Source of the DNA: an uncultured Thermoleophilia bacterium
Lineage (GTDB): Bacteria; Actinomycetota; Thermoleophilia; Gaiellales; Gaiellaceae
Length of the DNA stretch: 64,000 nucleotides
Assembly (NCBI GenBank): GCA_963782615.1
Contig: CAWAKM010000007.1
Location: 1,432-65,431, forward strand
Reading direction: 5' to 3'
Made by a program: the position numbers and the translations under genes. The notes beneath the pieces were generated by a model. That model was given only the letters and a program-made list of their open reading frames with translations. It was not told the origin of the DNA and made no database searches. Shown here in pieces: positions 24,112 to 43,651 of the stretch; the first letter of the stretch is position 1, and each line of letters opens with the position of its first letter.

Positions 24112-24204
24112 GGAGCGGCACGGGCCCGGTGGCCCAGCAGGTCTTCAAAACCTGTGCGGTGTGGTAACCCCACGCTCGGTCGGTTCGACTCCGGCGCCGC
24201 TCCG
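24112..24204 (+). tRNA. selC: tRNA-Sec(TCA)
   Basis: 8-bp acceptor GGAGCGGC/GCCGCTCC, GCAGGT-CTTCAAA-ACCTGT anticodon arm, long variable arm, GGTTCGACTCC, G discriminator. Confidence 0.95.
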
Positions 24205-24314
24205 TCAAGCCGTTTTTGGCCTGTTGAAGCCGTTTTTCGGCTACCAGATCGATGCTTAGCCTGCCTCCGGTTCGTCCGCTCAGATCCGCTGGAATCCGCT
24301 GGTTTCTGGCCCGC

Positions 24315-24338
24315 ACTGGACCGCAGACTGGACCGCAG
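24315..24338 (+). repeat. Tandem 12-mer ACTGGACCGCAG x2 (arm-type-site-like)
   Basis: Perfect tandem copies 24315-24326 and 24327-24338, with a degenerate CTGGCCCGC just before. Confidence 0.6.
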
Positions 24339-24491
24339 CGTAAAAAGACAGGAATCACTGCGGGCCGCTTGAGCAGTCCACCCCGAGGCCGCCGCGCCAG
24401 TGTCCGCGGAATGTCACCCGAGCGGACGCTCTGCCTAAAAGGCTTTCGAGTCGCTCGGCTAAACGAACCTGCCAGGCTGCGCATCTAAGTA

Positions 24492-24989
24492 GTGATGACG
24501 CCGCAGCACGAACTGGCTGAGACGGGCTCGATCGGCGACATCGAGACGATCTACCGCGAGCAATACTCGCGATACCTTCGCTTCGCCGTCGCCAACCTTG
24601 GCGACGTCGAGCGCGGCCGCGATGCAGTCCACGAAGCCTTCGTAAGCGCGATCAAGTCAGTCGGCGACTTTCGCGGCCAGGCACGCCTCGAATCGTGGCT
24701 GTGGCGGATTCTCTTGAACGTGTGCATTGCCGAGAAGAGACGTCGAGTCGTGCCGATCGAGGACGCGCGCCTTCAGGCCGACTTCGAAGACCCCGAATGG
24801 CCCGAGATCCGCGCCGCGATCGCCTCTCTTCCGGAGAGGCAGAGGACGGTTCTCTTTCTTCGTCACTACGCCGACCTCGACTACGAGCAGATCGGCGCCG
24901 TACTCGGCATCGCCCGGGGAACAGTGGCGGCAACCCTGAACACAGCCCACACAAGGCTACGGGCCGTACTTGGAGAGGTGAAGAGGTGA
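24492..24989 (+). CDS. ECF sigma factor
   Basis: DAVHEAF, WLWRILLN (region 2); LPERQRTVLFLRHYADLDYEQIGAVLGIARGTV (region 4). Confidence 0.9.
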   Translation: MMTPQHELAETGSIGDIETIYREQYSRYLRFAVANLGDVERGRDAVHEAFVSAIKSVGDFRGQARLESWLWRILLNVCIAEKRRRVVPIEDARLQADFEDPEWPEIRAAIASLPERQRTVLFLRHYADLDYEQIGAVLGIARGTVAATLNTAHTRLRAVLGEVKR

Positions 24990-26260
24990 GTGACTACCTG
25001 ACCTGCGTCCTAGACGAGCTCGTCCCGACCTTCGCCGACGAGGGTGGCGACTGGGAACGCGTCGTCTCCGACGCTGGTGCCGAGCCTCCGACGACGACCG
25101 CGCAGCGGTCGCGCGTCGACACGGCCGCATCATCCGTGGCGCCCCGTCGAAGACATGGCCGGTGGGCGACGCGGTGGCTCACCCGTCCTCGGCTCGTCGC
25201 CATCGCCGTCACCGCTCTGCTAGCCGTGCTCCTCGTCACACCGGCGCTCGGTCTCGGTGATCGCCTCCTGAGTCTGATCCGGAGCACGCCCACCCCGCTC
25301 GACGTGCAGACACCTGCGTGGTCGCCCGACGGACGGAAGCTCGCGTTCGTGAGCCGACGCGACGGCAACTCGGAGATCTACGTGATCAACACTGACGGCA
25401 GCGGGCAGGAGAACCTGACCCAGCACCCGGCGAGGGACAGCCATCCGAGCTGGTCGCGCGACGGACGGAAGCTCGCCTTCGTCAGCCGACGCGACGGCAA
25501 CTCCGAGATCTACGTGATGAACGCCGACGGGAGCGGGCTGCGCAACGTGACACGGGCTCCGTCGAACGATCTCCGTCCGGCCTGGTCGCCTGATGGGCGT
25601 GCGATTGCGTTTGTCAAGATGATCCTGAAGAAGTGCCCGCGCCCACGCGACAAGACTCCGTGCAACAACGACGTCTACGAGCCGAACCTCTATGTCGTGA
25701 ACGGCGACGGGAGCGGGCTGCGGCGACTGACAACACAGTGGGCGTCTCTGGTCAATCCAAGCTGGTCGGCGGACGGGAAGACGATCCGGTTCGGGCGTTA
25801 TCTCGTGCAGGCCGACGGCAGCGGGCAGACAGAGCTGCCTAGGAACGTCCCGTTCGCAGGAGCGTGGTCGCCCGACGGGCAGCGGATCGCCGTCGTGTCG
25901 TTCCCCCACAGCCCCCGGGACCCAACCGTCCCCGGACTTTGGGTCATGAACGCCGACGGAAGCAACCGTCGGCAGCTGACGCGCTACGCCGTCGGGACCG
26001 ATCCCGCGTGGTCCCCGGACGGTCGCCGGATCGCCTTCCGAAGGTTCGACCGCCGGACGTCGGCGGGGAACTCAGACCTCTTTGTCGTGAACGCCGACGG
26101 GAGCGGGCTGCGACGGCTGACACACCATACGGAGAACGTGCAGCGTTGGTTCGCGTGGTCACCCGACGGGCGCACGATCGCCTTCCTGCACAACCGGGAG
26201 GTGTACATCGTGAAAGCCGACGGAAGCGATGAACGGAGGCTCACGCAGCTCAACGACTAG
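24986..26260 (+). CDS. Membrane-anchored TolB-like (PD40 repeat) beta-propeller, probable ECF partner
   Basis: GTG overlaps the sigma stop; short cytoplasmic N-terminus, one TM, repeated PAWSPDGRKLAFVS..DGNSEIYV.N.DGS. Confidence 0.85.
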   Translation: MSDYLTCVLDELVPTFADEGGDWERVVSDAGAEPPTTTAQRSRVDTAASSVAPRRRHGRWATRWLTRPRLVAIAVTALLAVLLVTPALGLGDRLLSLIRSTPTPLDVQTPAWSPDGRKLAFVSRRDGNSEIYVINTDGSGQENLTQHPARDSHPSWSRDGRKLAFVSRRDGNSEIYVMNADGSGLRNVTRAPSNDLRPAWSPDGRAIAFVKMILKKCPRPRDKTPCNNDVYEPNLYVVNGDGSGLRRLTTQWASLVNPSWSADGKTIRFGRYLVQADGSGQTELPRNVPFAGAWSPDGQRIAVVSFPHSPRDPTVPGLWVMNADGSNRRQLTRYAVGTDPAWSPDGRRIAFRRFDRRTSAGNSDLFVVNADGSGLRRLTHHTENVQRWFAWSPDGRTIAFLHNREVYIVKADGSDERRLTQLND

Positions 26261-26483
26261 TTGAGGGCGAAGCAACCCAGCGGGGTGGGCCAGGCAACAG
26301 CCGTGAGGGCGGGAAACCTCCTGTTGCCACTTGCTACACGTAGTCAACCGGTGACATCGGGCGCGGGGCCCTGCTCGCCTGCGCCAGACCGTATGGAGTG
26401 CCCGGCGCCTCTCTCGTAAGTTGGCGCGGGTTGCCGTCGGGATGGGCCCGGCGGTAGAGCCGCAATTACGGGAGGCGCCGGTT

Positions 26484-27555
26484 ATGAGCGAAGGTAGCTG
26501 GGTCGGGCTTGATGTGCACGCGCGGTCGGTGGTGGCGGGCGTGATCGATGTGGGGAGTGGTGAGGTGCGGTCGCTGCGGGTGCCGGCCGGGTCTGACGCC
26601 ACGGTGGCGTGGTTGAAGACGCTGTCGGCGCCGGTTCGGGTCGTGTATGAGGCGGGGCCGACTGGGTACGGGCTTGCGCGTGCGTGTGCCCGGGCGGGGA
26701 TCAGCTGTGTTGTCGCGGCTCCGTCGCGGATCCGGCCGGCGGCCGATCGGGTCAAGACCGACCGGCGGGACGCTGAGCGGCTAGCGAGGCTGCTTCGGTT
26801 GGGTGAGGTCACTCCGGTGCGGGTGCCGGGGCCGGAGGAGGAGGCCGCGCGTGATCTGGTCAGGGCGCGGGAGGATGCCCGTGGCGATCTGATGCGGGCT
26901 CGGCACCGGCTCTCGAAGCTGCTGCTTCGTCATGGCGCGGTGTACGACGCGACCGCGTGGACGCGGGCGCACGACGCGTGGCTTCGCCAGCAGCGGTTCC
27001 AGAGCGGCCCGCTCGCGATCGTGTTCGACGAGTGCTACGGCCGCATGGTCGACGCGAAGGCCAGGAGGGACGCGCTCGACGTGGCGATCTCCGAGCTCGC
27101 CGCGAGTGAGCCGTACGTTGGTGTCGTCGAGCGGCTCGTCTGTCTCCGCGGTGTCTCCACGCTGACGGCGTTCGCGTTGACCGTTGAGCTCGGCGACTGG
27201 AACCGGTTTCGCCCCGAGTCGCTCGGCCCGTTCCTCGGCCTCACCCCGAGCGAGAACTCAAGCGGGGAGCGGCGCCGTCAAGGCGCGATCACCAAGACCG
27301 GCAACGCGACATGCACGTCGGCTCCTGGTCGAGGCCGCCTGGCACCACCGCCGCCCGTCGCGCTTGAGCGTCACGCTGGAACGCAGACGCACAGGCAAGT
27401 CCCTCGCCGTACGAGCCCAAGCGGACCGCAGCGCCCGCCGGCTCCACGGACGCTGGCACGCGCTCGAGGCCCGAGGCAAGCCCCGCTCGATCGTCGTGGT
27501 CGCGGTCGCCCGCGAGCTCGCCGGTCACTGCTGGGCGCTCGCGACGATGGAGTAG
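26484..27555 (+). CDS. IS110-family DEDD recombinase/transposase, +1 frameshift near 27310
   Basis: GLDVH, YEAGPTG, KTDRRDA, GLTPSENSSG...ITKTGN; HARRLLVEAAW and VAVARELAG are in the next frame. Confidence 0.88.
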
Positions 27556-27604
27556 GTCGCACCAGCAACGGCTCGGCGAGGAGAGCGCACCGGCGCAACG
27601 ACGC

Positions 27605-27730
27605 GAGGAGCGACCCGAGAGAACACTGGGAGCAGCCCCATCGGCGGCCACGCTCGACGCCAGAGATCGGCACCGCTCCTCATCTCGCATACCCGGTCAT
27701 GCGGCACCAACCCGCGCATATGAGTCGCGA
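27605..27730 (+). ncRNA. Candidate bridge/seek RNA of the IS (two internal guide loops)
   Basis: Stem GAGGAGCG/CGCTCCTC encloses the target-matching guides; a TCGC/GCGA stem encloses the donor-matching guides (see findings); true RNA ends unknown. Confidence 0.7.
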
Positions 27731-27977
27731 CACAGACGTCGACGACAGCCGGTGCGCACTCCCCGCCGAGACCCGAACCCCGCAAAACAGCGAGGTGAAC
27801 AACCCCTGCCCAGTTGACAGGCCGCACTCCATATGAGAGTTCGGGAATGTCACCCGAGCGCCAAGTGAGCCTCCTTGTAACAGACTGTTACAAGGACTCC
27901 CCTCGCCGCTGGCCGAGATCGGGAACGCTCGTCTGCCCGAGCGTGCGGGAATGCCCCTGCGCGACCGGCTGCCGCCG

Positions 27978-28265
27978 CTAGCGCGTCAGCGACCCGACGT
28001 CGTCGAGGTAGTCCATCGAAACGGACGCCAGGTCGACACCGTCACGCACCATCGCCTCTTCCATCGCCGGATTCGTGGCGTCCGCCTCCGCCACCTCGCG
28101 GGAGTCGTACGTCTCTGCGAGAACAACGACGTTCGGATCGTCCTGCCCGCGCCAGATGCGCGCGGAACGTACGTGACTTCCCAGCGGCGAGGCGAAGAAC
28201 TGCTCATAGCTTTGCCGCCACGACTCATAATCGGCTACCCGGCAGCGAACAAGAATGGTCGTCAT
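27978..28265 (-). CDS. Small dimeric alpha-beta-barrel (cyclase/ABM-like) protein
   Basis: MTTILVRCRVADYESWR, IWRGQDDPNVVVL, AMEEAM..GV pattern; RBS GAGGAGG. Confidence 0.7.
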   Translation of the reverse strand: MTTILVRCRVADYESWRQSYEQFFASPLGSHVRSARIWRGQDDPNVVVLAETYDSREVAEADATNPAMEEAMVRDGVDLASVSMDYLDDVGSLTR

Positions 28266-28763
28266 GTCGCCTCCTCGACTAGGTTCGCGACACCATACGA
28301 CGGAGCGAATGGCGACACAAGCGCCGCCTGCGCGAGCGTACTTACACCCGATCGGCGAGGTTCGGTGATTCCTGATCGAGGAAGCCCGTCAGACGGAGGA
28401 CACGACGGAGGATCGCCGTATCCTGGATCTTCGGCGGTAGGCGGCTCTCGATCGCCGTGCGTTCAGCCCACTCCCGTACCTGTTGGCGCAAGTTCTCGTC
28501 TACAGCCGTGTCTCTTATGTTGACCTAGAGTGGCTTGTGTTACGCCGCGTCGCGTTTCCGTTGCTCGCGGTAGCTCCTGATCAGCGCGAGTGATCTCGGG
28601 CCGTAGCGGTAGGTGATGGAGCCGCCTGCTCCTGGCTGGCGTTCGATTGCGATGAAGCCATTGCGTTGGAGATGGGCAAGGTCGGATTCGCGGAACATGA
28701 TGTCGGCGTCCTGAGCGGCGCGTTAGGGGGCGTGGGGGCGTCGAAGCTTGACAAGTCTGAGCA

Positions 28764-28797
28764 TATCGATTATCAATATCCGTATTGTTTATCGATA
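28764..28797. promoter_or_regulatory. Imperfect 15-4-15 inverted repeat (putative XRE operator), with TTGACA at 28748
   Basis: TATCGATTATCAATA / TATTGTTTATCGATA, 13/15 complementary, AT-rich. Confidence 0.55.
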
Positions 28798-28811
28798 CGT
28801 TAGGAGTAGCC

Positions 28812-29411
28812 GTGGAAAATGGATCGTTCGACAGGTGGTTGCAGCGGTTGCGAGTGACCGCGACGATCGTCTACATCGTCGCGCTCTGCCTCGCCGTCGC
28901 AGTGCTGGTCATCGCCGTCATCCCCCACTCGCCAGTCACCACCACGTTGCCCGCCAAGGACGTGGCCGGGCTCGACCAAGTCAGCGGCTTGGCCTCCGGG
29001 ATCACCGTCGACCCTGCGGGCACGATCGCCGTCGAGATCGCCGAGCCGTCGACCGCGCAGCGGTTGCTGTACCTCGTCGTCGTGCTGCCCGGACTTGCCC
29101 TCGTCGCACTGATCGCCCGGCGGATGGCCAAGCTGCTTGGTGACGCGCTCGCGAGCGACCCGTTCACCGTCCAGACCGTCCGAGCGCTCACTGCCCTGGC
29201 CAAGGTCACCGCGATCGGCGGAATCGGCGTGTGGGCGATGAGCTACCTGGCTACCTGGGTGCTCTCGGCAACCGTCCTCGACACGGCCGGCGTCACTCGG
29301 CCACACGAGGCCCCGCTCGGCTGGCTCGCCGTTGCGCTCATCCTCGCCGCGTTCGGCCAACTCCTCGCCCGCGGAGTCGCCATGAGAGCTGAACTCGACA
29401 CGGTCATCTAG
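28812..29411 (+). CDS. DUF2975-like membrane protein
   Basis: Four TMs, DPFTVQTVRALTALA, GVAMRAELDTVI; AGGAG RBS before GTG at 28812. Confidence 0.8.
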   Translation: MENGSFDRWLQRLRVTATIVYIVALCLAVAVLVIAVIPHSPVTTTLPAKDVAGLDQVSGLASGITVDPAGTIAVEIAEPSTAQRLLYLVVVLPGLALVALIARRMAKLLGDALASDPFTVQTVRALTALAKVTAIGGIGVWAMSYLATWVLSATVLDTAGVTRPHEAPLGWLAVALILAAFGQLLARGVAMRAELDTVI

Positions 29412-29674
29412 TGACCGAACCTGCCGACCACGGCATCGAAGTGCACCTCGACAAGCTCCTCGCAGAGCGAGGCATCACCCTGGTCGAGCTCTCCACCCAG
29501 GTCGGCGTCACCGTCGCCAACCTCTCAATCCTCAAGAACGGTCACGCCCGCGCCGTCCGCTTCAGCACCCTCACTGCCATATGTGACGCCCTCGACTGCA
29601 ACCCCGGACAACTCCTCAGCCGGGCACGTCCTCCAGACGTTGACGCTGCGTCCTCAAGCTCGCGCCCGGCTTAG
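29411..29674 (+). CDS. XRE/Cro-C1 regulator (YozG-like), usual DUF2975 partner
   Basis: HLDKLLAERGITLVELS..VGVTVANLSILKNGHARAVRFSTL..IC..LDCNPG. Confidence 0.9.
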   Translation: MTEPADHGIEVHLDKLLAERGITLVELSTQVGVTVANLSILKNGHARAVRFSTLTAICDALDCNPGQLLSRARPPDVDAASSSSRPA

Positions 29675-29926
29675 CCCGCAAATGCTCGCGCAACCAGCCG
29701 AAGGAACTCGGCTTCGCCAGCGCGCTCTCGCCTGACATCGCTCGGAGGGCCAGCCGCGCTGAGGAGCGTTTCGAGGGACACGCCGCCATCATCCTCCACG
29801 ATCCACCTCTCGGTTGGCGCAAGCATTCCGGCGGAGCGCCCATGACGGGCTTCAGCCGTAGACACAGGCCGGCAGTTAAGGGAGGATCGCCGCAATGACT
29901 ATGACCTCACCGCCGCGAGTTCTCTT

Positions 29927-30784
29927 GTGAGGTCGGCGCTTCGTGGTTTCGCACTCGTCGCGATCGCTGCGGCCATCGTGCTCACGGCCGCGGTGGCAGC
30001 CGCGTCCGGGCGAAGCGTGTCCCAGATGACGCTTTCGGTCAGCCCTGCCAAGCCTGCATTAAGCTCGATAGCGACGGTGACGATCCGAGGCATCGCCGAC
30101 GAGACGGCCATGCCGGCGGTCGTGGCCGTCTCGGGCTCCGTGTGTCCGGCTCGGGTCCCGTCGCTTTCTAATGCATTCTGGTCAGAAGATTCCAGCCTCA
30201 CGCTCGGTGCATTCACGCGCAAGGTCAGGGTGTTCATCCAAACGAAGACCATGCGGCGGTTCTGTGCGTACCTCCAGCCGGCGGTGCAGGGGGTGAACGA
30301 CGGTGACCCCCCGGAGATCTCGCCCGGCGCACCGCTCGTTCGAGCCGAGGTCGCGCTTCCTCAGGCTGCCGCTGGTCCGCTCCGCGGCGTTCCGGTGTCC
30401 GGGGTCAGCGGGGGGAACCGGGACGGCCCCGGCCCGACGCTCGTGTTAGACCGCACCGGCCGCCGGATCGTGATGGTGCGAACGACCTGCGGCGGCAGCG
30501 CCCTGCACCCTCCATCTCTCGGCAAGGAGTTCATCGGCAAGCGGTTCAGCGCGCGGGTTTCTCTGCCGCTGACGAGAACCATCCGCTGGAGCGGGTTCGT
30601 CACCCCGGACAACTCGCGCAACTACGACGCTCCGGTGCCCGTCGCGTGGACGAAGCCCACACGGTTCACGTTGAACGTGAAGGTGATCGTGAAGGATGGC
30701 CTGGCGAGGGCCCTCGTCGGCACGGGCGCACTCGCGAGCCCCGGTCTGCCGTGCCCGAAGGTTCAACGCTACGTCTTCCCCTGA
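29927..30784 (+). CDS. Hypothetical secreted protein
   Basis: Signal peptide (AAA-SG); beta-rich composition with several Cys. Confidence 0.6.
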   Translation: MRSALRGFALVAIAAAIVLTAAVAAASGRSVSQMTLSVSPAKPALSSIATVTIRGIADETAMPAVVAVSGSVCPARVPSLSNAFWSEDSSLTLGAFTRKVRVFIQTKTMRRFCAYLQPAVQGVNDGDPPEISPGAPLVRAEVALPQAAAGPLRGVPVSGVSGGNRDGPGPTLVLDRTGRRIVMVRTTCGGSALHPPSLGKEFIGKRFSARVSLPLTRTIRWSGFVTPDNSRNYDAPVPVAWTKPTRFTLNVKVIVKDGLARALVGTGALASPGLPCPKVQRYVFP

Positions 30785-30979
30785 ACCGCTACGTCGTCGG
30801 CTCTGGACTAGTTTGCGCTAACTAAGTAGTTGGTTCGGCCAGAACCAGCCGCCCCAGCATCCTCTCGCGTGACCGCTGTCGGGGTGAGAGCGATCCTCAG
30901 CGGACTATCGCAAACACTGCCGCACATCGGCTCGCCATTGGTCGGAATCGACCGTCTCAAGCCGTTCTCGGCGGAATCA

Positions 30980-31060
30980 CAGCAGGTCTTCTAAACCTGT
31001 GCGGTGTGGTAACCCCACGCTCGGTCGGTTCGACTCCGGCGCCGCTCCGTCAAGCCGTTT
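30980..31060 (+). repeat. attR-like 3' copy of selC (loop CTTCTAA instead of CTTCAAA)
   Basis: Matches 24135-24215 except one base; lacks the 5' acceptor strand and D-arm. Confidence 0.9.
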
Positions 31061-31256
31061 CGGCGTCCCGAAAGGGCTTGCGACGGTTGCGGCCGTCGCG
31101 TCGATACAAGCCCTATCGCCGCCTGAGGCCGCTCAAGACCGCCTGGGGCCCGCGTGGACTTGCGAGCTGCGTGATCGAAACCGTGTGACCCCGTGGCGCG
31201 GATGTTCGTCGCACTCGCCTTTCGCCCATGGCCACGTCACAATCCGTGCGAGCGGC

Positions 31257-34067
31257 ATGGTGGAGACAGTCATCGGGCGGGACATGGAGCTTAGCTCGAT
31301 CGAGGGTTTCCTCGATCGAATCCGGGGCGGCCCAAGCGCGCTCGTGCTCTCGGGCGAGCCGGGCATCGGGAAGACGGCATTGTGGGAGGTTGGCGTCGAG
31401 GCAGCCCGGGAGCGTCACGACCGAGTGCTGACGTGCCACGGCGTCGAGGCCGAGGCGTCACTCGCGTTCGCCGGGCTCTCGGAGCTGCTCGCCCGAGTGC
31501 TCGACGAGGCCACACCGTCGCTCGCGCCACCACGGCGGCGGGCCCTCGAGGTCGCGCTGCTCCTCGTCGAGCCGAGCGGGCGCCCTCCTGACCACCACGC
31601 CATCGGGCTGGCCGTGCTCGACGTCCTGCACGCGCTGGCCGAGCACGGGACGGTTCTCATTGCGCTCGACGATGTGCAGTGGCTGGACGCGGCCTCCGCT
31701 GGCGTGCTTCAGATCGCCTTCCGCCGGCTGCGCGAGGAGCCGGTCGGGCTCCTGGCGACGCTGCGCCAGGCACCGGAGGTCGACGATCCGTTCGACCTCG
31801 ACCGTTCGTTCCCCGAGGAGCATCTCGAGCGGCTCTCGATCGGCCCGCTCACGTCCGGGGCTCTCCACCGGCTGCTCGCGGAGCGCCTCGGGCTCGAGCT
31901 GACCCGGCCGGAGCTGGCGCGCGTGCAGGAAGCGACGGCGGGAAACCCATTCTTCGCGCTCGAGCTCGGCCGCGAGCTCGTCCGCACCGGGTCGCGGCCG
32001 ACACCGGGCCAGCCGTTGCGCGTTCCCGACAGCCTCCGGGAGCTGCTCGGTGGCCGCCTCGCACGCCTGCCCGGAGAGACACTCGATGTCCTGTTGCAGG
32101 TCGCCGCGCTCGCACGGCCGACGGTCGAGGTGGTCGCGGCCGCGCACGGCGAGCGGGACCCCGTCCTCCGCGGGCTCGAGGCGGCGGTCGACGAGGGGGT
32201 CGTCGAGCTCGACGACACACGCATCCGCTTCACGCACCCGCTGTTGGCGTCGATCTGCTACGAGAAGGCGCCGGTATGGAAGCGCCGCGCCGTGCACCGG
32301 GCGCTCGCCGGAGCGGTCTCCGACATCGAGGAGCGCGCCCGCCACCTCGCACTCGCCGCAGACGGACCTGACGCAGCGGTCGCAGCGGAGCTCGACGCTG
32401 CGGCAGGCCGGGCGGCGATTCGCGGCGCTACCGGTGTCGCAGCCGAGCTCTGCGAGCTCGCGGCCGAGCTGACCCCGAGCAATCCGCCCCGGCAACGAGA
32501 ACGGCTCCTCCAGGCTGCCGCCTTCCACCGTCTCGCCGGCAACACAGAGCAGGCGGCAGCACTCCTCGAGCAGCTCCTGACGGAGGTCCCATCCGGTGTC
32601 GAACGAGCCGACATCCTCCTCGCGCTCGGCTGGACGTTCCTCACCAGGCTTCCGACGATGAAGGAACATTTCGACGACGCACTCCTCAATGCGACCGGCG
32701 ACGACGCCCGCTTGGCACGGATTCTGTCGCTGCGAAGCATGTTCCACCTGATGTCGCTCGACGTGCCGGCGGCCCTCGCGGACGCCAGAGCAGCGCTGGA
32801 GCGGGCCGAGCGGGTGGGCGACCCGGTCCTGATTGCCACTGCGATCGCGCGGGTCGGGCACGTGGAGTCGTGGGGTGCCGAGATAACACCCGGCCTGCTC
32901 GAGCGTGGTGTGCAGATCGAGCAGCAACTCACTGTGGAGCTCGACTTCATCGAGAGCCCGAGCATCCACCTCGGCAGGCAGCTGATGCGCCGCGGCGAGA
33001 TCGACCGGCCCCGTACGATCTTCGTGGAGCTGGAGGCGAAGGCGGTGGCCCGCGGGGACGAGGTGACACGGACCCTGATGCTCTGGTACCTGTCGCTGGT
33101 GGAGTGGTGCGCCGGGCGCTGGCAGCGCGCCCTCGAGCTCGTCCAGACCGCGCACGAGCTCGGTGAGCAGACACAGCTCGCAGGCAGCTACGGCCATGAC
33201 GCTCGCTTCGGCGGGCTGATTCGCGCAGATCTCGGTCTCGTCGCGGAGGCGCGTGCCTCTGCTGAGCGCGCGGTCGAGCATGCGCGGCTGAACGGGGACG
33301 AGTACTTCGTGATCCCGTCCCTCGGCGTGCTTGGGCGGCTCGAGCTCGCACTTGGCAACCTCGAAGCGGCGGCCCGCCATCTGCGCGACCTGCCCGAGCG
33401 TCTGCTTGCAGGGGGCATCAACGACCCCGGGCAACCCCTCTGGGGAGACGCGATCGAGACGCTCATCGCCGTGGGCGAGCTCGACCGTGCTCGTACCTAC
33501 CTCGAGCAGTTCAGCGTGCACGCCAAGAACGTCGGAAATCTGTACGCCGTGGCGGGAGCCGCGCGCTGTCGCGGGCTACTCGCAGCCGCGGAGGGCGACC
33601 TGGCCGGAGCGATCGCAGAGCTCGAAGGGGCGGTCGACGTACTGGCCGACGGCGGCTTTCCGGTCGAGCGCGGCCGCGCGCTGCTCTGCCTCGGGATGGT
33701 GCGAAGGCAGGCACAGCAGAAGCGCGCCGCCCGCGAGGCGCTCGAGCAGGCGCTCGTGGTCTTCGACGAGCTCGGTGCCCGTCTGTGGGCCGATAAGGCC
33801 CGCGCGGAGCTCAAGCGGATCGGCGGGCGGCGGCCCGCCCCCGACGGGCTGACCGACACGGAGGAGCGCATCTCGAGGATGGCGGCCGACGGCAGTTCCA
33901 ACAAAGAGATCGCCTCGGCGCTCTTCATGAGCGTGCGCACCGTCGAGGCTCACCTTACGAGCGTCTACCGCAAGCTCGACATCCGCTCCCGCAGCGGGCT
34001 CGCCAACCGGCTTGAACCGGTTGCGGCTGAGGCCGGCAAACCTGCGGTCGACGCGGGCGAAACCTAG
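31257..34067 (+). CDS. Large AAA-ATPase / TPR / LuxR-HTH regulator (LAL/MalT-like)
   Basis: VIGRDMEL, GEPGIGKT, IALDDVQWLD, GNPFFALEL, C-terminal LTDTEERI...SNKEIA..LFMSVRTVEAHL. Confidence 0.92.
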   Translation: MVETVIGRDMELSSIEGFLDRIRGGPSALVLSGEPGIGKTALWEVGVEAARERHDRVLTCHGVEAEASLAFAGLSELLARVLDEATPSLAPPRRRALEVALLLVEPSGRPPDHHAIGLAVLDVLHALAEHGTVLIALDDVQWLDAASAGVLQIAFRRLREEPVGLLATLRQAPEVDDPFDLDRSFPEEHLERLSIGPLTSGALHRLLAERLGLELTRPELARVQEATAGNPFFALELGRELVRTGSRPTPGQPLRVPDSLRELLGGRLARLPGETLDVLLQVAALARPTVEVVAAAHGERDPVLRGLEAAVDEGVVELDDTRIRFTHPLLASICYEKAPVWKRRAVHRALAGAVSDIEERARHLALAADGPDAAVAAELDAAAGRAAIRGATGVAAELCELAAELTPSNPPRQRERLLQAAAFHRLAGNTEQAAALLEQLLTEVPSGVERADILLALGWTFLTRLPTMKEHFDDALLNATGDDARLARILSLRSMFHLMSLDVPAALADARAALERAERVGDPVLIATAIARVGHVESWGAEITPGLLERGVQIEQQLTVELDFIESPSIHLGRQLMRRGEIDRPRTIFVELEAKAVARGDEVTRTLMLWYLSLVEWCAGRWQRALELVQTAHELGEQTQLAGSYGHDARFGGLIRADLGLVAEARASAERAVEHARLNGDEYFVIPSLGVLGRLELALGNLEAAARHLRDLPERLLAGGINDPGQPLWGDAIETLIAVGELDRARTYLEQFSVHAKNVGNLYAVAGAARCRGLLAAAEGDLAGAIAELEGAVDVLADGGFPVERGRALLCLGMVRRQAQQKRAAREALEQALVVFDELGARLWADKARAELKRIGGRRPAPDGLTDTEERISRMAADGSSNKEIASALFMSVRTVEAHLTSVYRKLDIRSRSGLANRLEPVAAEAGKPAVDAGET

Positions 34068-34114
34068 AGCTTCCACGGTTACGCTCAGCGGCGTCCCGCC
34101 GTAGCCTCAGCTCC

Positions 34115-34336
34115 ATGGTCTTCGTCGTCGAGCGGTACCTCCCGGGAGCCTCCTACAGCGAGCTTCGTCGCTCCCTCGAGCGGCTGCGCCGACAAGGCGG
34201 ACTGCGGGTGCCCTACCTCGACTCGACCACGTCACTGGCGACGAGGCCTGCCACCGACGGCTCCAAGCGCCCGCCAAGACGGCTGTCGCCGAAGCGAAGG
34301 GCGGGCCTGCCGTTCAACTGGGTCGTTCCCGCGTGA
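34115..34336 (+). pseudogene. Degenerate DUF4242-like small protein
   Basis: FVVERYLPG start and RAGLPF..VVPA end; the central GDEAC motif is in another frame (two compensating shifts). Confidence 0.5.
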
Positions 34337-34361
34337 TTGTCACGCCGAAAGGAGAGGTTCC

Positions 34362-34796
34362 ATGAGCGCTTCCACTACTGCCCCCGCGACCATCCAACTC
34401 CGGCGAGGTCACCTGTTCGTGCTGATCGCCGCCGTTACCGCGCTGACGGCCGCCGCCACGCTGGCAGTGTCAACACTCGCCTTCGACTCGAACGCGATCC
34501 GAACGGGCGAGGCGGCGCAGGCACCCGTGCAGACCCTGTTGCTGCCGTCGAGCCGGTACCTCGCCCGCATCGTCGTCAGGCCGGCGGAGGCACCCGTGCA
34601 GACGCTGTTGCTGCCGTCGAGCCGGTACCTCGCCCGCATCGTCGTCAGGCCGGCGGAGGCACCCGTGCAGACGCTGTTGCTGCCGTCGAGCCGGTACCTC
34701 GCCCGCATCGTCGTCAGGCCGGCGGAGGCACCCGTGCAGACCCTGTTGCTGCCGTCGAGCCGGTACCTCGCCCGCATCGTCGTCAGGCCGGCGTGA
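34362..34796 (+). CDS. Signal/TM-leader protein with four tandem 23-aa repeats
   Basis: RBS GAAAGGAGAGG; hydrophobic N-terminus; (APVQTLLLPSSRYLARIVVRPAE)x4. Confidence 0.7.
   Translation: MSASTTAPATIQLRRGHLFVLIAAVTALTAAATLAVSTLAFDSNAIRTGEAAQAPVQTLLLPSSRYLARIVVRPAEAPVQTLLLPSSRYLARIVVRPAEAPVQTLLLPSSRYLARIVVRPAEAPVQTLLLPSSRYLARIVVRPA
34521..34792 (+). repeat. Tandem 69-bp repeat x4
   Basis: Units start at 34521, 34590, 34659, 34728 (last truncated by the stop); one synonymous C/G difference. Confidence 0.95.
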
Positions 34797-34811
34797 GAGC
34801 GGGTCGATCGG

Positions 34812-34847
34812 GCCTGGAGAGGGGAGCAGGCCCTCCCCTCTCCAGGC
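34812..34847 (+). terminator. 14-bp perfect hairpin after the repeat gene
   Basis: GCCTGGAGAGGGGA / TCCCCTCTCCAGGC; no U-tract. Confidence 0.6.
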
Positions 34848-34866
34848 GCCGGCGGCGAACAATGAG

Positions 34867-34895
34867 TTGACGCCGACCGTGCCAAATCTCACAAT
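34867..34895 (+). promoter_or_regulatory. Putative sigma-70 promoter for the PEP-enzyme pair
   Basis: TTGACG-N17-CACAAT, then AGGAGGAGG RBS before ATG 34918. Confidence 0.5.
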
Positions 34896-34917
34896 CACCC
34901 AGGAGGAGGCGAGAGCG

Positions 34918-36771
34918 ATGACAATCGCTGATGAGCAGGCCAGCGCGGCACGATCAGGCTTCCCGAGCCCGTTCGAGGTGCCAATCCCTCCGGAGTGCGA
35001 GGGGTGGGAGGAGCTGTACACCCCCTTTAGCGTGTTCAGCGAGGACCGTCGCGCGTTTGACGAGAGCCGGTGTTGGTTCCAGCTTTCCTCGCACTACGCG
35101 GAGCCTTTCTGTCCGTTCGACGCGATCTTCTTCGAGTACGCAACGGCCGCCCTGAGCCAGTCGAGCACTCGTATCTTCGTCGTGCCGCCGTCGCTCGGTT
35201 TCGAGCTGCGGGTCCTCAACGGGTTCGTCTATCTCAGCCCCAACTCGGTCACCGACGAATTGGCGCTTGCGCACCGCGCTGAGCTGTTCGCCGCCCGCGG
35301 CGGTTTCTACTACGAGCACTGGGAGGAGCTGCTGGTCGAGTGGCAGCGTCGGGTCTTGGAGGCGATCGAGGAGCTCGGGGCGCTCGAGGTGCCGGCGCTT
35401 CCCGACCTGGAGGACGAGGCGATGGTGACCGAGGGCAGGGGCCTCGGCTCGAGCCACGCCCTCCTCCATGCCTATGACCGTCTCCTCGAAGGGTTCGACC
35501 GCATCTGCCACTACCACATGCAGTTCCAGATCCTCGCCCATGGCGCCTACATGGTCTTCTACGGCTTCTGCTGGGAGGCTTTTCCCGGGATCTCCGATCA
35601 GGCCGTCGCGAAGATGGTCTCCGGGGTCGACACCGTGATCTTGCGCCCCGACGACGAGTTGCGCCGCCTCGCGCGCCGTGCTGTCGAGCTGAGGGTGGCC
35701 GAGCGCGTGATCGGCGTGGGTAACGAGGACGAGCTGCGCGCGGCCCTCGGGACGGATGCGGCGGGGAGGCTTTGGCTGGCCGACTTCGACGAGACGAAGG
35801 ACCCCTGGTTCCACTTCTCGTATGGGAACGGGTGCTACCACCATCACCGCTCCTGGAGCGACGACACGCGGTTCCCGATCACGACGATCGCCTCGTACGT
35901 CGGGCGGCTCGAAGCGGGCGAGGACATCGCGAGGCCACAGGCCGCGATCGCCGCCGAGCGCGAACGGATCACCGAGGAGTACCGGGCGCTGCTCCCGAGC
36001 GAGCTGCAGCAGGCCTTCGACGAGCACCTCACGCTCTGTCGTACGGTCTTCCCGCACGTCGAGAGCCACGGCTTCTACGTCGACCACTGGTATCACACGC
36101 TGTTCTGGAACAAGGTGCGCGAGTTCGGCACGCTGCTCGAGCGGCACGGGTTCCTGGCCGACGCGGAGGACGTCTTCTTCCTCCAGCACGGCGAGGTGCG
36201 GACGGCGCTCGAGGAGCTCCGGGTCAACTGGAGCAGCGGGGGAGCCGGGCAGCCGCGGGGCCCGCGCTATTGGCCGCGGATCGTGGAGCGGCGCACGGCG
36301 ATCTACGAGGCGATGCGCGAGTGGACACCCCCACCCGCCCTCGGCACGGTCCCGGAGGCGATCACTGATCCGGTCACGATCATGCTGTTCGGGATCTCGA
36401 CAGAGCACCTCCAGAAGTGGCTTGGCTCGGACGATGCGGACGAGCACGTGCTGTCCGGGTTCGCCGGCTCTCCCGGTGTGGCCGAGGGTACCGCGCGGGT
36501 CGTCCTCACCCCTGACCGGCTCGGGGAGCTCGAGAAGGGGGAGATCCTCGTCGCGCCGTTCACGACGCCGAGCTGGGCGCCGGTGTTCGGCACGATCGCC
36601 GGTGCGGTCCTCGACGCGGGCGGGATCATGTCGCACGCGGCGATCGTGGCGCGCGAGTATGGCCTACCGGCGGTGATCGGGACCGGATCCGCGACGAAAC
36701 GGATCACGACGGGCGACCGCGTCCGCGTCGACGGCGGCGTGGGCGTCGTCACCATCCTCGAGAACACGTGA
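34918..36771 (+). CDS. PEP-utilising enzyme: substrate-binding region plus phospho-His swivel domain
   Basis: GFAGSPGVAEG, GEILVAPFTTPSW, GGIMSHAAIVAREYGLPAVIG, VRVDG..G.V. Confidence 0.88.
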   Translation: MTIADEQASAARSGFPSPFEVPIPPECEGWEELYTPFSVFSEDRRAFDESRCWFQLSSHYAEPFCPFDAIFFEYATAALSQSSTRIFVVPPSLGFELRVLNGFVYLSPNSVTDELALAHRAELFAARGGFYYEHWEELLVEWQRRVLEAIEELGALEVPALPDLEDEAMVTEGRGLGSSHALLHAYDRLLEGFDRICHYHMQFQILAHGAYMVFYGFCWEAFPGISDQAVAKMVSGVDTVILRPDDELRRLARRAVELRVAERVIGVGNEDELRAALGTDAAGRLWLADFDETKDPWFHFSYGNGCYHHHRSWSDDTRFPITTIASYVGRLEAGEDIARPQAAIAAERERITEEYRALLPSELQQAFDEHLTLCRTVFPHVESHGFYVDHWYHTLFWNKVREFGTLLERHGFLADAEDVFFLQHGEVRTALEELRVNWSSGGAGQPRGPRYWPRIVERRTAIYEAMREWTPPPALGTVPEAITDPVTIMLFGISTEHLQKWLGSDDADEHVLSGFAGSPGVAEGTARVVLTPDRLGELEKGEILVAPFTTPSWAPVFGTIAGAVLDAGGIMSHAAIVAREYGLPAVIGTGSATKRITTGDRVRVDGGVGVVTILENT

Positions 36772-37808
36772 GCTACGTCTTCCCTCTCGATGGCCGCGAG
36801 CCGCACCTGGCGGAGATCGTCGGCGGCAAGGCGGTCGGTCTGGGCTCGCTCCTGCGCGAGGGGCTGAGGGTGCCACCGGGGTTCGCCCTCGGCACGCACG
36901 CTTACCGCGAGATCGTAGGCGCGACCGGCCTGGACGCGGAGATCAGAGCCTTGTTGCAGGAGGCAGAGTCGCTCGAGGCTCGGGCAGAAGCCTCGGCACG
37001 GATCGGCCGGCTGTTCGAGGAACGCGAGCTGGCAGGCGCGCTGCGAGACGAGCTGGGGAGCGCCTACTCCGGGCTTGGTGACGATCTCCCCGTCGCCGTG
37101 CGATCGAGCGGGATCTCCGAGGACGCGGCCGAGGCATCGTTCGCGGGCGAGCACGAGACGTTCCTCTGGGTGGTCGGTGCCGACGCGGTCGCGCGCGCAG
37201 TGCTGAGCTGCTGGGCCAGCCTGTTCACCCCGCAGGCGCTTGCCTACTTCGGCCGCGTCGGGCTGCGCGCAGACGAGACCGCGATGGGCGTTGTGGTGCA
37301 GGCGATGGTCGACGCTGAGGCGGCGGGCGTCATGATCACCATCGACCCGGTCACGGGCGACCGGTCGCAGATCGCGATCGAAGGGTCGTTCGGCCTGGGT
37401 CAGGCGGTCGTCGCCGGAGAGGTGACGCCTGACCGCTACTACGTCGACAAGGTGACGCTCGAGATCCGCTCGCGGGTGGTCTCGGCAAAGCACTTCGCGT
37501 ACCGGTTCGATCCCGACTCGGGCGGAGTGGCCGCGTTGGAGGTGCCGCCCGAAGAGCAGGAGCTGCCCTGCCTGTCGGACGACGAGGTCGTCGCTGTCGC
37601 CGCGCTCGGGAAGCGCGTGGAACGGGCACTCGGCGCCCCGCAAGACATCGAGTGGGCAATCGGGCCCGGCTGCTCGCAATCTCGGGAGCTGTTCCTTCTC
37701 CAGGCCCGGCCCGAGACCGTCTGGAGTCACAGGCCAAGGGCAGTGGCTGCCACGGGCGGATCCGCGACGCTAGGGCGGATCGAGCACGGGATGATGAGGC
37801 GGGCCTGA
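36768..37808 (+). CDS. PEP synthase/PPDK N-terminal ATP-grasp subunit
   Basis: VGGKAVGLG, VPPGF, VAVRSS..SED...SFAGEH, VVVQAMV, VVAGEVTPD, PQDIEWA; overlaps the upstream stop. Confidence 0.9.
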   Translation: MSYVFPLDGREPHLAEIVGGKAVGLGSLLREGLRVPPGFALGTHAYREIVGATGLDAEIRALLQEAESLEARAEASARIGRLFEERELAGALRDELGSAYSGLGDDLPVAVRSSGISEDAAEASFAGEHETFLWVVGADAVARAVLSCWASLFTPQALAYFGRVGLRADETAMGVVVQAMVDAEAAGVMITIDPVTGDRSQIAIEGSFGLGQAVVAGEVTPDRYYVDKVTLEIRSRVVSAKHFAYRFDPDSGGVAALEVPPEEQELPCLSDDEVVAVAALGKRVERALGAPQDIEWAIGPGCSQSRELFLLQARPETVWSHRPRAVAATGGSATLGRIEHGMMRRA

Positions 37809-37826
37809 CTGAGATCCACGGCCAGT

Positions 37827-38700
37827 GTGGGGTGTCACCGGGGTGTGCACCGCACGCGCAAACTAGGCGCTCGTGACATGCCTGACCCCAGGCAACATGC
37901 CGTGGAGGGCGTGCTCCTGGGATTCAGATGGGCGGTGACGGACTCACTGCTCGATCACATCGGCGTACGGGCGGCGCTCGATCCGCTCGCGCAGCCGGTA
38001 GGCGGCCGCCACCTCGAGCTCGAGCTCGAGCGTCACACCAAGATGCCCACCGACACCTGCGCCGCGCGCAGAACTTCCGGTCGATCCTCGCCGATCTCGA
38101 TCACATCGCCGGTGCCGGTCGCGATCCGCACGCCGCGGAGCGTCGCCGAGAAGCTCGGGAACGCGATGCCGTCGCAGAAGGTGACGATCCGTCGCTACTC
38201 GGCGTCATCATCAGCCACGGCCACCCCGATCACTACGGGCTTGTGGCGGCAAGCTCGCCCGTGGTTCCTCGCTACATCGGCGAGGCGGCACACCGGATTC
38301 TCGCCGCGGCCGCCTTCTTCACACCGACAGGCGTTGACCTGCGCCCGAACGGCTTCCTGCACGACCGACAGCCGTTCACGCTCGGGCCGTTCCAGGTCAC
38401 GCCGTACCTGTCGGATCACAGCGCCTTCGACGCCTACGGACTCCTTGCCGAGGCCGGCGATCGCAGCCTCTACTACTCCCCCGACCTGCGCGGCCACGGA
38501 CGAAAACGCAGCCTGTTCGAGCGTCTGCTGACCGAGCCGCCTAATGCGCATACGCTGCTCCTGGAAGGCACCCGCATCGCCGAACAGCCCGACGACACGC
38601 GCGGGCTGGCGAGCGAGACCGACGTCGAGAACGCGGCCGCAAGCTCTTTCGGGGCACAGACGGGATCGCTCTCGCTCTCTACTCGCCCCAGAACATCGAC
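37827..38700 (+). pseudogene. Broken MBL-fold (RNase J/beta-CASP-like) hydrolase
   Basis: GVIISHGHPDHYGL, DHSAFDAY, YSPDLRGHGRK, LLLEGTRI; N-terminus scrambled and C-terminus cut short before attR. Confidence 0.65.
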
Positions 38701-38809
38701 CGGCTCGTCTCCCGCAGGGAACTTGACTGTGGCGAGGAACGTGGCGGGAGGAGTCTCGGCGCCAGTCGAACCGCTTTCTCAAGCCGTTTGCGCCCTGGCC
38801 GCGGCGAGG

Positions 38810-38872
38810 CTTCAAAACCTGTGCGGTGTGGTAACCCCACGCTCGGTCGGTTCGACTCCGGCGCCGCTCCGT
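38810..38872 (+). repeat. Second attR-like 3' copy of selC
   Basis: 63 bp identical to 24143-24205, starting exactly at the anticodon loop. Confidence 0.9.
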
Positions 38873-39075
38873 GAAGAGGAGGTGAAGGTCGTCAGCTTGA
38901 CGAGCTTCCTGCCGCGCTCGACGGCAACCGCGGCGATGCCGGACTCAGGGGAGACGTAGAGACGCTTCATGCGGTGTCGAAGGCTAGGCGTCGGGGCTAG
39001 TCGCCCGACCTCGAAGTTGCTACTGAACTTCATCGTTTTCCCCCGGCGCGGGGCCTCACGGCTTAGTCTCAGAGC

Positions 39076-41563: not shown

Positions 41564-41876
41564 CTGCATACGTAGCAGTCGGCCGTGCCGCGGGCGAGGT
41601 GAAGCGCGTCGCGCGCGACCGCCGTGCCTATGTCCCGGTGGCGTCGGACTCAAGTCCACCCATCGACCCGTTCCGAACTGAAAGGATGACGGCGTGGGAG
41701 CGAGGTCCCCGAGGACGGCGATTGGCACTCGCTGGATGAGCTGAGCGAGGTGTGTCACTTCCCGGACCGGTGGATCGAGGAGTTTCGTCGGGACGGGCTC
41801 GAGGTTGTCGAGGACGTGGCCGAGGGCAAGATCGCACTCGTCTCGGCCTAGACGGTTCATGCGCGTAGTTGGAAGG

Positions 41877-42611: not shown

Positions 42612-43071
42612 GCCACGAGCATGCGCACTCCCGACCCCAATATGGGCAAGAAAGTGGCTTCTGAGCAGGGAAAACATGGATAACAGCGGTCAACCGCAAC
42701 GCACGTGCGACAGCAAAGAGTGCCCACTCGCCGAGGTCATGCCCCCTGAAGCTCGACGATATGGACACTCTTTGTGCCACCCAGCGGGAATCGGAAACCG
42801 ACGGATGGAGGAGGGCAGATCCAGAGCACTATCCAGAAGACACGTGAACCGCTCCGGGTTTCATGCAGGCCTGCAACTTTCCCGGAGCGGTTCACACAGT
42901 CACCCGAGGAGGCTCGGTCCCCGAGAGCGCCTGGGTGCGGTTCACCGCACCCGCAGACACCTGCGCACCGTCTTCGCCAGGCACCGAGGCGAAGGCACGC
43001 TGTCCATTAGGCCGTGACACAAACGATCGGAGCACCCCAGATCGTCGCCCGACTCGCACCGGAGCTGATTC

Positions 43072-43566: not shown

Positions 43567-43651
43567 CCCAGCATTCCGCGTGGCCGTGTTCGGGAACGTT
43601 CCCTGGTACTCGTCGGCACCTTGGACACCGGCGGTCGCTGTGCGTGCTCAC

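What the first reader, a model, noticed from the sequence alone, without database searches (positions are those of the whole stretch)
24112..38872. Two islands stacked in tandem at tRNA-Sec, neither encoding an integrase
Seen: full selC, then 3' copies at 30980-31060 (81 bp, from the D/anticodon junction) and 38810-38872 (63 bp, starting exactly at the anticodon loop), delimiting ~6.9-kb and ~7.8-kb segments. No tyrosine or serine integrase ORF is recognisable in either. Established: selC is an integration hotspot, and tandem accretion leaves such repeats. Inference: these are either decayed islands or minimal non-autonomous cassettes mobilised in trans, forming an array of regulator-plus-cargo modules. 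The accessory DNA beyond 38.9 kb may be a further element whose end lies outside the window.
Basis: partly seen in the sequence, partly recalled or inferred. Interest (0 to 1): 0.68.

Follow-up and report, generated by a model that had tools for sequence, protein, structure and literature searches.

The report
Integrase-less island stack at tRNA-Sec
Downstream of the selenocysteine tRNA gene of an uncultured soil actinobacterium (Gaiellaceae) lie two gene blocks, each ending in a leftover copy of the tRNA's 3' part. These are ordinary scars of mobile elements that inserted one after another and lost their integrase. The first block is also being remodelled today by a separate, little-known gene-cassette system.

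Summary
A genuine tRNA-Sec gene (24112-24204) is followed by two direct 3' copies, at 30980-31060 (80/81 nt) and 38810-38876 (66/67 nt). They bound blocks of 6.8 kb and 7.8 kb.

No tyrosine or serine recombinase, or detectable remnant of one, lies in either block or anywhere on the 404-kb contig. About 29 kb of further accessory DNA follows, up to the conserved flank at about 68.5 kb, outside the window.

In the same genus selC is a recurrent landing site. Most genomes carry one to five partial copies, and gene content downstream of selC differs in every species. A tRNA-targeting tyrosine integrase is intact at selC in one relative and a pseudogene in at least three others.

The best reading is tandem accretion followed by integrase loss, giving CIME-like or decayed islands. 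This is a known kind of structure. Mobilisation in trans is not excluded, but nothing supports it. A 99.9%-identical second strain keeps both blocks.

The only strain difference is a 3.4-kb segment (PD40 gene plus IS110) whose ends fall inside a 31-nt site. That site bounds integron-like cassette arrays across the genus. This side result is the interesting part.

The parts
20772..22533 (+). selB, upstream core gene. It is split into two ORFs here by a 1-nt insertion near 22215, compared with the 586-aa intact gene of the sister strain.
   Evidence: Pfam GTP_EFTU, Beta-barrel_SelB and SelB-wing_3. Indel seen against L076. Gene call in L076.
24112..24204 (+). Intact tRNA-Sec (selC). This is attL of the array.
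   Evidence: ARAGORN. Rfam RF01852 64.5 bits.
24205..30979 (+). Island I, 6.8 kb, no integrase.
   Evidence: Bounded by selC and copy 2. None of its cargo genes lies within 20 kb downstream of selC in the relatives' regions compared.
24394..24424 (+). Cassette site A (GCGCCAGTGTCCGCGGAATGTCACCCGAGCG), 190 nt after selC.
   Evidence: nhmmer E = 1e-5. The 17-mer is repeated at 27844-27860.
24695..26260 (+). PD40 (TolB-like) beta-propeller protein, given as the maximal ORF. Paralogues of 82% and 67% identity lie on C5 and C8, each next to IS110-type elements.
   Evidence: Pfam PD40 1.2e-53. Paralogues.
26386..27842 (+). IS110/IS1111-family insertion sequence inside cassette site B. Three other copies of 91-93% identity are in the genome.
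   Evidence: Pfam DEDD_Tnp_IS110 plus Transposase_20. Copies on C8, C2 and C3. Flanks.
27839..27860 (+). Right half of cassette site B (AGTTCGGGAATGTCACCCGAGCG). The left half is at 26374-26385.
   Evidence: nhmmer E = 1.2e-5. Sequence.
28713..29736 (+). DUF2975 membrane protein (28812-29411) plus HTH_26 regulator (29411-29674). This 1.0-kb cassette is 99.3-99.7% identical in two other species. It ends in GCCAG|CGCGCTCTCGCC.
   Evidence: Pfam. L077 and L078.
29927..30784 (+). 285-aa predicted secreted protein with no family match.
   Evidence: Same gene called in L076.
30955..30966 (+). TCTCAAGCCGTT, shared with 38777-38788 just upstream of each partial copy. It resembles the TCAAGCCGTTT that follows the tRNA. 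Possible element-arm motif, untested.
   Evidence: (D3).
30980..31060 (+). Partial selC copy 2: attR of island I and attL of island II.
   Evidence: 80/81 identical. Rfam sub-threshold, 28.3 bits.
31061..38809 (+). Island II, 7.8 kb, no integrase.
31257..34067 (+). LAL-type regulator (AAA_16, TPR, LuxR HTH).
   Evidence: Pfam. Start taken from the L076 gene call. 64% paralogue at C7:379686-382484.
34362..34796 (+). 144-aa ORF with four 23-aa (69-nt) tandem repeats. Found only in this copy of the module.
   Evidence: (D1).
34918..37808 (+). Split PEP-utilising enzyme pair: PEP-utilizers mobile domain protein, then PPDK_N ATP-grasp protein. Paralogues of 71% and 78% at C7:376485-379331.
   Evidence: Pfam. 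Paralogues.
37809..38809 (.). About 1 kb with no convincing gene. It is not homologous to what follows the paralogous module (an MFS transporter and a luciferase-like gene).
38810..38876 (+). Partial selC copy 3: attR of island II.
   Evidence: 66/67 identical; exact run 38810-38872.
38877..64000 (.). Third accessory stretch. It continues to about 68.5 kb outside the window, has no terminal selC fragment and no mobility gene. Content: ABC transporters, GNAT, cNMP-binding protein, NmrA, ECF sigma/anti-sigma, glycosidase, SBP, GAF histidine kinase, LacI.
   Evidence: Pfam. Synteny. No further selC fragment.

Best explanation
The region is a tandem accretion array at selC. Elements carrying a tRNA-targeting tyrosine integrase inserted one after another into the 3' part of tRNA-Sec. 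Each brought its own copy of that part, which keeps the tRNA intact, and pushed the previous copy downstream as a scar.

The integrases and other mobility genes were then deleted. This left two integrase-less blocks that still carry near-perfect att repeats. In the literature such blocks are called CIMEs or decayed islands. A third, older stretch has lost its far boundary.

Shown: the repeats; the absence of any integrase; the hotspot behaviour across the genus; and the presence of the integrase family at selC in relatives, both intact and decayed.

Inferred: that these particular blocks once carried that integrase. Island II ends in the same repeat class, starting at the anticodon loop, as the integrase-bearing segments of relatives.

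Present-day change inside island I does not use the selC repeats. It occurs at a 31-nt cassette site and through IS110-family insertions.
For: Repeats and significance:
- Repeat structure and E-values.
- All partial copies in 13 genomes lie downstream of selC in direct orientation. Their 5' limits cluster at selC positions 24-34, 39-44 and 62-64.

Hotspot behaviour:
- The 20 kb downstream of selC shares no gene with the window in any of the relatives' regions compared. Upstream genes (selB, DUF5684) are conserved.
- The conserved right flank of relatives maps to own C7:~70-79 kb. In G005 it lies only ~2.3 kb after selC.

The integrase in relatives:
- An intact 408-aa tyrosine integrase (Phage_integrase plus SAM-like domain) lies 3.9 kb after selC in G019.
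- Fragments of 84-89% identity lie inside att-bounded segments in G001 (two) and MFD02199. Weaker fragments are in G002 and G014.
- Homologues of 48-53% identity sit next to tRNA-Ser or tRNA-Asp genes in other Thermoleophilia.
- Segments that carry this integrase end in copies starting at position 32, as island II does.

Absence in this genome:
- No integrase or remnant in the window or on the contig.

Literature:
- The same architecture, including many islands without an integration module, is described for Dehalococcoides ssrA islands (PMC3146451) and for CIMEs (PMC5704250).
Against: - The att copies are almost perfect (1 mismatch each), yet not even a fragment of an integrase remains. Relatives do keep recognisable fragments. 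This means either clean deletions or elements that never encoded one.
- Base composition of the blocks equals that of the genome.
- The cargo has 64-82% paralogues elsewhere in the same genome. So the donors were close relatives, or the blocks were partly rebuilt from resident DNA.
- In G019 the integrase is not adjacent to the att site, and no complete reference element with both ends was recovered.
Confidence: 0.78

Rival explanations
1. The two blocks are still-mobile, non-autonomous cassettes. A selC-specific integrase encoded elsewhere, in this genome, on a plasmid or phage, or in a newly arriving element, excises and integrates them through the retained att repeats. This is cis or trans mobilisation as for CIMEs.
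For: - Near-perfect repeats of 81 and 67 nt.
- A shared 12-nt motif upstream of both partial copies.
- Complete absence of integrase debris.
- Many 7-9 kb att-bounded, integrase-less segments in the genus: own two, G001, G006, G007, G011, G013.
- CIME mobilisation is documented elsewhere (PMC5704250; PMC3146451).
Against: - No homologue above 38% identity of the selC integrase in the genome.
- No integrase-bearing element in tandem.
- The one other strain on record has both blocks in place.
- No block is found at selC or elsewhere in another genome.
Confidence: 0.14
2. The blocks were not brought by selC-integrating elements. They were assembled in place by the 31-nt cassette system and IS110 activity, and the selC fragments are passengers or by-products.
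For: - Island I holds two to three cassette sites, at least one cassette shared with other species, and a terminal junction of the array type.
- Cassette sites also lie within 3 kb of selC in G013, G024 and MFD02199.
Against: - Island II and the stretch after it have no cassette sites.
- The cassette system does not explain direct repeats of the tRNA's 3' part with class-specific 5' limits. These are the signature of integrase crossover in tRNA genes.
- Integrase remnants in relatives sit inside such segments.
Confidence: 0.05
3. The copies are chance or assembly artefacts, or local duplications of selC unrelated to mobile elements.
For: None beyond the fact that the genome is a metagenome-assembled genome with single-base indel errors.
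Against: - E = 7.6e-35 and 2.5e-27.
- Identical structure in an independent assembly.
- The same pattern in a dozen related genomes.
Confidence: 0.01

Closest known systems
Tandem ssrA genomic islands of Dehalococcoides (McMurdie et al. 2011, PMC3146451)
   Same: - One small-RNA gene is followed by several islands.
- Each island ends in a direct repeat of the gene's 3' end.
- Content is strain-specific.
- About half of the islands lack the integration module and were proposed to be cis-mobilisable or fixed.
   Different: - The target is tmRNA, not tRNA-Sec.
- The integrase there is a serine recombinase next to attL. Here it is a tyrosine integrase seen only in relatives.
- Repeats there are 20 bp; here they are 63-81 nt.
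CIMEs (cis-mobilisable elements) and accretion at ICESt1-type elements of Streptococcus thermophilus; accretion of Streptomyces pathogenicity islands (cited in PMC5704250)
   Same: Elements that lost integration and transfer genes but kept attL and attR, stacked in tandem at the 3' end of a target gene.
   Different: - In those cases a functional ICE or IME with a matching integrase sits in the same array or was shown to mobilise the CIME.
- No such partner is present here, and no mobilisation was tested.
selC-associated islands of Enterobacteriaceae (from my own knowledge: LEE, SHI-2, PAI-I of UPEC)
   Same: Same target gene and the same use of its 3' end.
   Different: - Those islands carry P4-type integrases next to selC and virulence cargo.
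- They are a different integrase lineage in a different phylum, and usually form one island rather than a stack.
Integron cassette arrays and CALINs (PMC4889954, PMC9024848). Relevant only to the 31-nt site inside island I.
   Same: - Same-strand arrays of one- or two-gene units with a median spacing of 729 bp.
- Units recur in other genomes with other neighbours.
- IS1111/IS110-type ISs insert into the sites, as the IS1111-attC group does in integrons (the last point is from my own knowledge).
   Different: - The site is conserved in sequence (31 nt), not a structured attC.
- There is no IntI, and no conserved gene at array ends.
- The phylum is reported to lack complete integrons.

Membership tests
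tRNA-integrated genomic island (tyrosine-integrase type) | Insertion at the 3' part of a tRNA gene, leaving an intact tRNA and a displaced direct repeat. | tested here: met
tRNA-integrated genomic island (tyrosine-integrase type) | Integrase gene inside the island. | tested here: not met
   No PF00589 or PF00239 hit, and no remnant by tblastn or custom HMM. The integrase is present in relatives' selC segments.
tRNA-integrated genomic island (tyrosine-integrase type) | Variable presence or content among relatives, with a conserved flank on both sides. | tested here: met
   The conserved right flank lies ~46 kb from selC here and ~2.3 kb in G005.
tRNA-integrated genomic island (tyrosine-integrase type) | Deviant base composition. 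| tested here: not met
   GC 0.62-0.71 in the blocks, like the rest of the window.
CIME (cis-mobilisable element) | attL and attR retained; integration and transfer genes lost. | tested here: met
CIME (cis-mobilisable element) | Excision or transfer when a related integrase or ICE is present. | not testable with these tools
No cognate integrase in the genome. The sister strain shows no excision.
Integron / CALIN (for the sites in island I) | attC sites, meaning a structured imperfect palindrome with R and L boxes. | tested here: not met
   The site is a conserved 31-nt sequence with variable upstream context. No Rfam match.
Integron / CALIN (for the sites in island I) | IntI integrase. | tested here: not met
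   NCBIfam TIGR02249 and PRK15417 score far below cut-off for all own tyrosine recombinases. No conserved gene at array ends.
Integron / CALIN (for the sites in island I) | Co-oriented arrays of small cassettes that recur with different neighbours. | tested here: met
IS110/IS1111 family insertion sequence (26386-27842) | DEDD transposase with Transposase_20 domain, several copies, site-specific target. | tested here: met

The most novel reading that the evidence does not exclude
Gene turnover next to selC in this lineage is driven mainly by an undescribed, integron-like cassette system of the genus, not by the selC att repeats. The system's 31-nt site is CCTGCGCCAGTGTTCGGGAATGTCACCCGAG, and it has no dedicated integrase beside its arrays. 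Island I would then be a small outpost array of that system. It would comprise the PD40 cassette, the DUF2975+HTH cassette and a terminal GCGCCAG|CGYSCTCTCGCC junction, carried on or inserted into a selC island. IS110/IS1111 elements home to the same site and cause deletions there. The recombinase would act in trans and could even be of the IS110 type, because cassette ends and the IS insertion point coincide at GCGCC-AG.
Probability: 0.45. Interest if true: 0.8.

Novelty: new member of a known kind. Interest (0 to 1): 0.38.

Why it matters
As given, the finding is a clean example of a well-described process. It adds a first picture of selC as a genus-wide landing site in Gaiellaceae (Thermoleophilia), together with the tyrosine integrase family responsible.

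Its practical value is for annotation. The 'tRNA-Arg(tct)' call is a scar, and about 46 kb downstream of selC is accessory DNA.

The greater value lies in the side result. Two 99.9%-identical strains differ by one unit whose ends lie within a 31-nt site. A 1-kb two-gene unit is 99.3-99.7% identical in three species whose flanks are only about 80% identical. The same site forms arrays in 19 of 25 genomes of the genus. This gives direct evidence of recent cassette movement in a phylum said to lack integrons.

Tried and rejected
- Integrase remnants: searched with Pfam over the whole genome, tblastn and a custom HMM on six frames. Nothing found.
- A third selC fragment closing the stretch after 38.9 kb: none above background.
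- A cryptic att fragment next to the G019 and MFD02199 integrase: none.
- The IS110 transposase as the island's integrase: rejected. It is a 1.46-kb multi-copy IS in the middle of island I.
- A gene family common to all att-bounded segments, as a hidden recombinase: only LAL regulators (8 genomes) and the known integrase (4 genomes) recur. LALs are abundant genome-wide.
- More strains through exact-protein look-ups: only one other assembly exists.
- For the cassette site:
  - Not an integron attC and no IntI.
  - Not dif-like when compared with CACGCCGATAATGCACATTATGTCAAGT (PMC3025954).
  - No conserved gene at array ends.
  - Tyrosine-recombinase remnants near three arrays are unrelated to each other.
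  - Compensatory change in the inner dyad was seen in one copy only, so no structural claim is made.


Full report
OBSERVATION

ARAGORN finds tRNA-Sec(tca) at 24112-24204. Rfam RF01852 confirms it at 64.5 bits against a gathering score of 47.

Two direct copies of its 3' part follow:
- 30980-31060 matches selC positions 24-104, 80/81 identical. The one change falls in the anticodon.
- 38810-38876 matches positions 32-98, 66/67 identical. The exact run is 38810-38872.

Against the whole 4.07-Mb genome the matches have E = 7.6e-35 and 2.5e-27, and no further copy exists.

ARAGORN's tRNA-Arg(tct) at 30959-31048 is copy 2 misread. Rfam gives it 28.3 bits. Both partial copies are preceded at the same distance by TCTCAAGCCGTT. 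This resembles the TCAAGCCGTTT that follows the tRNA itself.

GENE CONTENT

Upstream lie selA, selB and a DUF5684 gene.

Island I (24205-30979) holds:
- a PD40 beta-propeller protein;
- an IS110-family IS;
- a DUF2975 membrane protein with an HTH_26 regulator;
- a 285-aa secreted protein.

Island II (31061-38809) holds:
- an AAA_16-TPR-LuxR (LAL) regulator;
- a 144-aa protein with four 23-aa repeats;
- a split PEP-utilising enzyme pair;
- about 1 kb without a gene.

After copy 3 come transporters, regulators and enzymes, with no mobility genes.

NO INTEGRASE IN THIS GENOME'S ARRAY

- PF00589 hits eight places in the genome, none on the 404-kb contig.
- PF00239 hits nothing in the genome.
- tblastn with the selC integrase of a relative finds nothing in the window.
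- A family HMM run with --max on all six frames of C7:24000-72000 gives only noise, E >= 0.3.

RELATIVES

The window is contig C7:1432-65431 of a 13-contig, 90.65%-complete genome.

In 24 genomes of the genus, most carry selC followed by one to five partial 3' copies. All are in direct orientation and lie within about 35 kb. G001 has five, G013 three and G012 two. Their 5' limits fall into classes at selC positions 24-34, 39-44 and 62-64. This suggests more than one integrase specificity. From my own knowledge, these limits correspond to the anticodon-loop and T-loop sublocations of Williams (2002).

Upstream genes are conserved. No gene downstream of selC in the window occurs within 20 kb downstream of selC in any of the relatives' regions compared. 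The conserved right flank of relatives maps to own C7:~70-79 kb. In G005 it starts about 2.3 kb after selC. No terminal selC fragment closes it.

THE INTEGRASE IN RELATIVES

- G019 has an intact 408-aa tyrosine integrase (Phage_integrase plus SAM-like N-domain) 3.9 kb after selC, antisense to it.
- Fragments of 84-89% identity lie inside att-bounded segments of G001 (two) and of MAG MFD02199. Weaker fragments are in G002 and G014.
- Homologues of 48-53% identity lie next to tRNA-Ser or tRNA-Asp genes in Solirubrobacteraceae MAGs.
- Segments with this integrase end in copies that begin at position 32, as island II does.
- Of 24 att-bounded or att-adjacent segments examined, five carry this integrase and only one copy is intact.

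Integrase loss is therefore the rule in this genus. The same was reported for the Dehalococcoides ssrA islands, where 15 islands lack the integration module (PMC3146451). The CIME concept describes the same outcome (PMC5704250).

DECAYED OR MOBILISED IN TRANS?

The best own homologue of the selC integrase is 38% identical. The assembly is about 9% incomplete, so absence is not proven.

Exact-protein look-ups found one other assembly of the same population, ENA ERZ25039502 contig_60912. It is 99.8-99.9% identical over window 17307-24413 and 27849-39674 and beyond. It keeps both partial copies and island II. So there is no sign of excision at the selC repeats.

The nearly perfect repeats and the lack of any integrase debris keep the trans-mobilisation reading alive, at about 0.14.

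WHAT DIFFERS BETWEEN THE TWO STRAINS

Window 24414-27848 (the PD40 gene plus the IS110 copy) is absent from the sister strain. In its place is a different 1334-bp IS110-family element, which I call IS-X. It sits inside the 17-mer GGAATG^TCACCCGAGCG, which in the window is directly repeated at 24408-24424 and 27844-27860.

The simplest history is IS-X insertion into both sites followed by recombination between the two copies. Alternatively, the PD40 unit was gained or lost at the site. The data do not decide between these.

The window's own IS sits in the same site at GCGCC-AG|AGTTC and has three other copies in the genome.

THE 31-nt SITE

The consensus is CCTGCGCCAGTGTTCGGGAATGTCACCCGAG, with an inner dyad TTCGGG-AATGTCA-CCCGAA.

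Distribution:
- It occurs in 19 of 25 genomes of the genus, counting the window's own.
- A reversed control pattern has zero hits in all 41 genomes searched.
- It forms same-strand arrays, for example 16 sites in 13.5 kb in G020 and 9-14 sites in 23 kb on own contig C9.
- Median spacing is 729 bp, n = 76.

Evidence that the units move:
- The DUF2975+HTH unit of island I (28713-29736) is 99.3-99.7% identical in two contigs of other species whose flanks are about 80% identical to this genome. In one of them (L078) the site bounds it on both sides; in the other (L077) on the left only.
- Other units of 400-700 nt are shared between arrays of different species at 87-93% identity, with ends on the sites.
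- Unit ends fall right after GCGCCAG.
- Four unrelated places, including window 29720-29736, share a terminal junction GCGCCAG|CGYSCTCTCGCC.

What the system is not:
- No IntI.
- No serine recombinase.
- No conserved gene at array ends.
- No dif-like XerD arm.
- No Rfam family.

Actinobacteria are reported to lack complete integrons (PMC4889954, PMC9024848).

Earlier notes of this scan describe similar arrays in Gaiellaceae. I reached the result independently here, but those notes are not independent proof.

Sites also lie within 3 kb of selC in G013, G024 and MFD02199. By a rough estimate this is more often than about 20 sites per 3.5 Mb would give by chance.

VERDICT

The finding as stated is real and is an ordinary tandem accretion array with lost integrases (confidence 0.78). 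It is a new member of a known kind. The 'cassettes mobilised in trans' alternative is not excluded.

The unexpected element is that island I is partly built from, and is currently being changed at, a different recombination-type site belonging to an integron-like cassette system of the genus.

Noticed in passing
window 24394-24424, 26374-26385 plus 27843-27860, 29710-29736; own C9:14.6-37.3 kb; loci L078, L083-L094: A genus-wide 31-nt site (CCTGCGCCAGTGTTCGGGAATGTCACCCGAG) bounds one- or two-gene units in same-strand arrays. Units are shared between species at 87-99.7% identity with ends on the site. No integrase lies beside the arrays. This is an integron-like system in a phylum said to lack integrons.
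   Followed up: partly
window 28713-29736; L077:9303-10325; L078:2314-3320: The DUF2975+HTH_26 pair is 99.3-99.7% identical in three species whose surrounding DNA is about 80% identical. This indicates very recent transfer of a 1-kb unit between species.
   Followed up: yes
window 24414-27848 versus L076:7105-8438: The sister strain (99.9% identical) lacks the PD40 gene and the window's IS. It carries a different 1334-bp IS110-family element inserted in the spacer of the same site (GGAATG|TCACC). Related copies of 67-75% identity are on own C11, C9, C8, C3 and C5.
   Followed up: partly
window ~22215 and ~22607: There are single-base insertions relative to the sister strain. One splits selB (586 aa intact in the sister strain) into two ORFs. 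These are probably long-read assembly errors, so frameshifts in this MAG should not be read as pseudogenes without checking.
   Followed up: partly
window 31257-37808 versus own C7:376485-382484: The LAL regulator plus split PEP-utilising pair of island II has a paralogous copy (64%, 71% and 78% aa identity) 340 kb away. That copy is followed by an MFS transporter and a luciferase-like oxidoreductase. The repeat-peptide ORF (34362-34796) is present only in the island copy.
   Followed up: partly
window 27973-28339 versus own C11:120965-121331: A 367-nt non-coding stretch is repeated at 97% identity next to an IS-X-like element on contig C11. It is possibly DNA carried along with that IS.
   Followed up: no
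G024:C6:319776-325145 (not fetched): Two selC fragments lie far from selC, next to a LAL regulator homologue (42-47% identity). This could be a relocated piece of a selC island.
   Followed up: no
L055:8976-9290, L048:14862-15176, own C5:72631-72942 and others: A 104-aa protein family without a Pfam match recurs in selC-downstream regions of at least five relatives (G001, G009, G013, G014, G015). In this genome it lies near a tRNA-Ile island-like region.
   Followed up: partly
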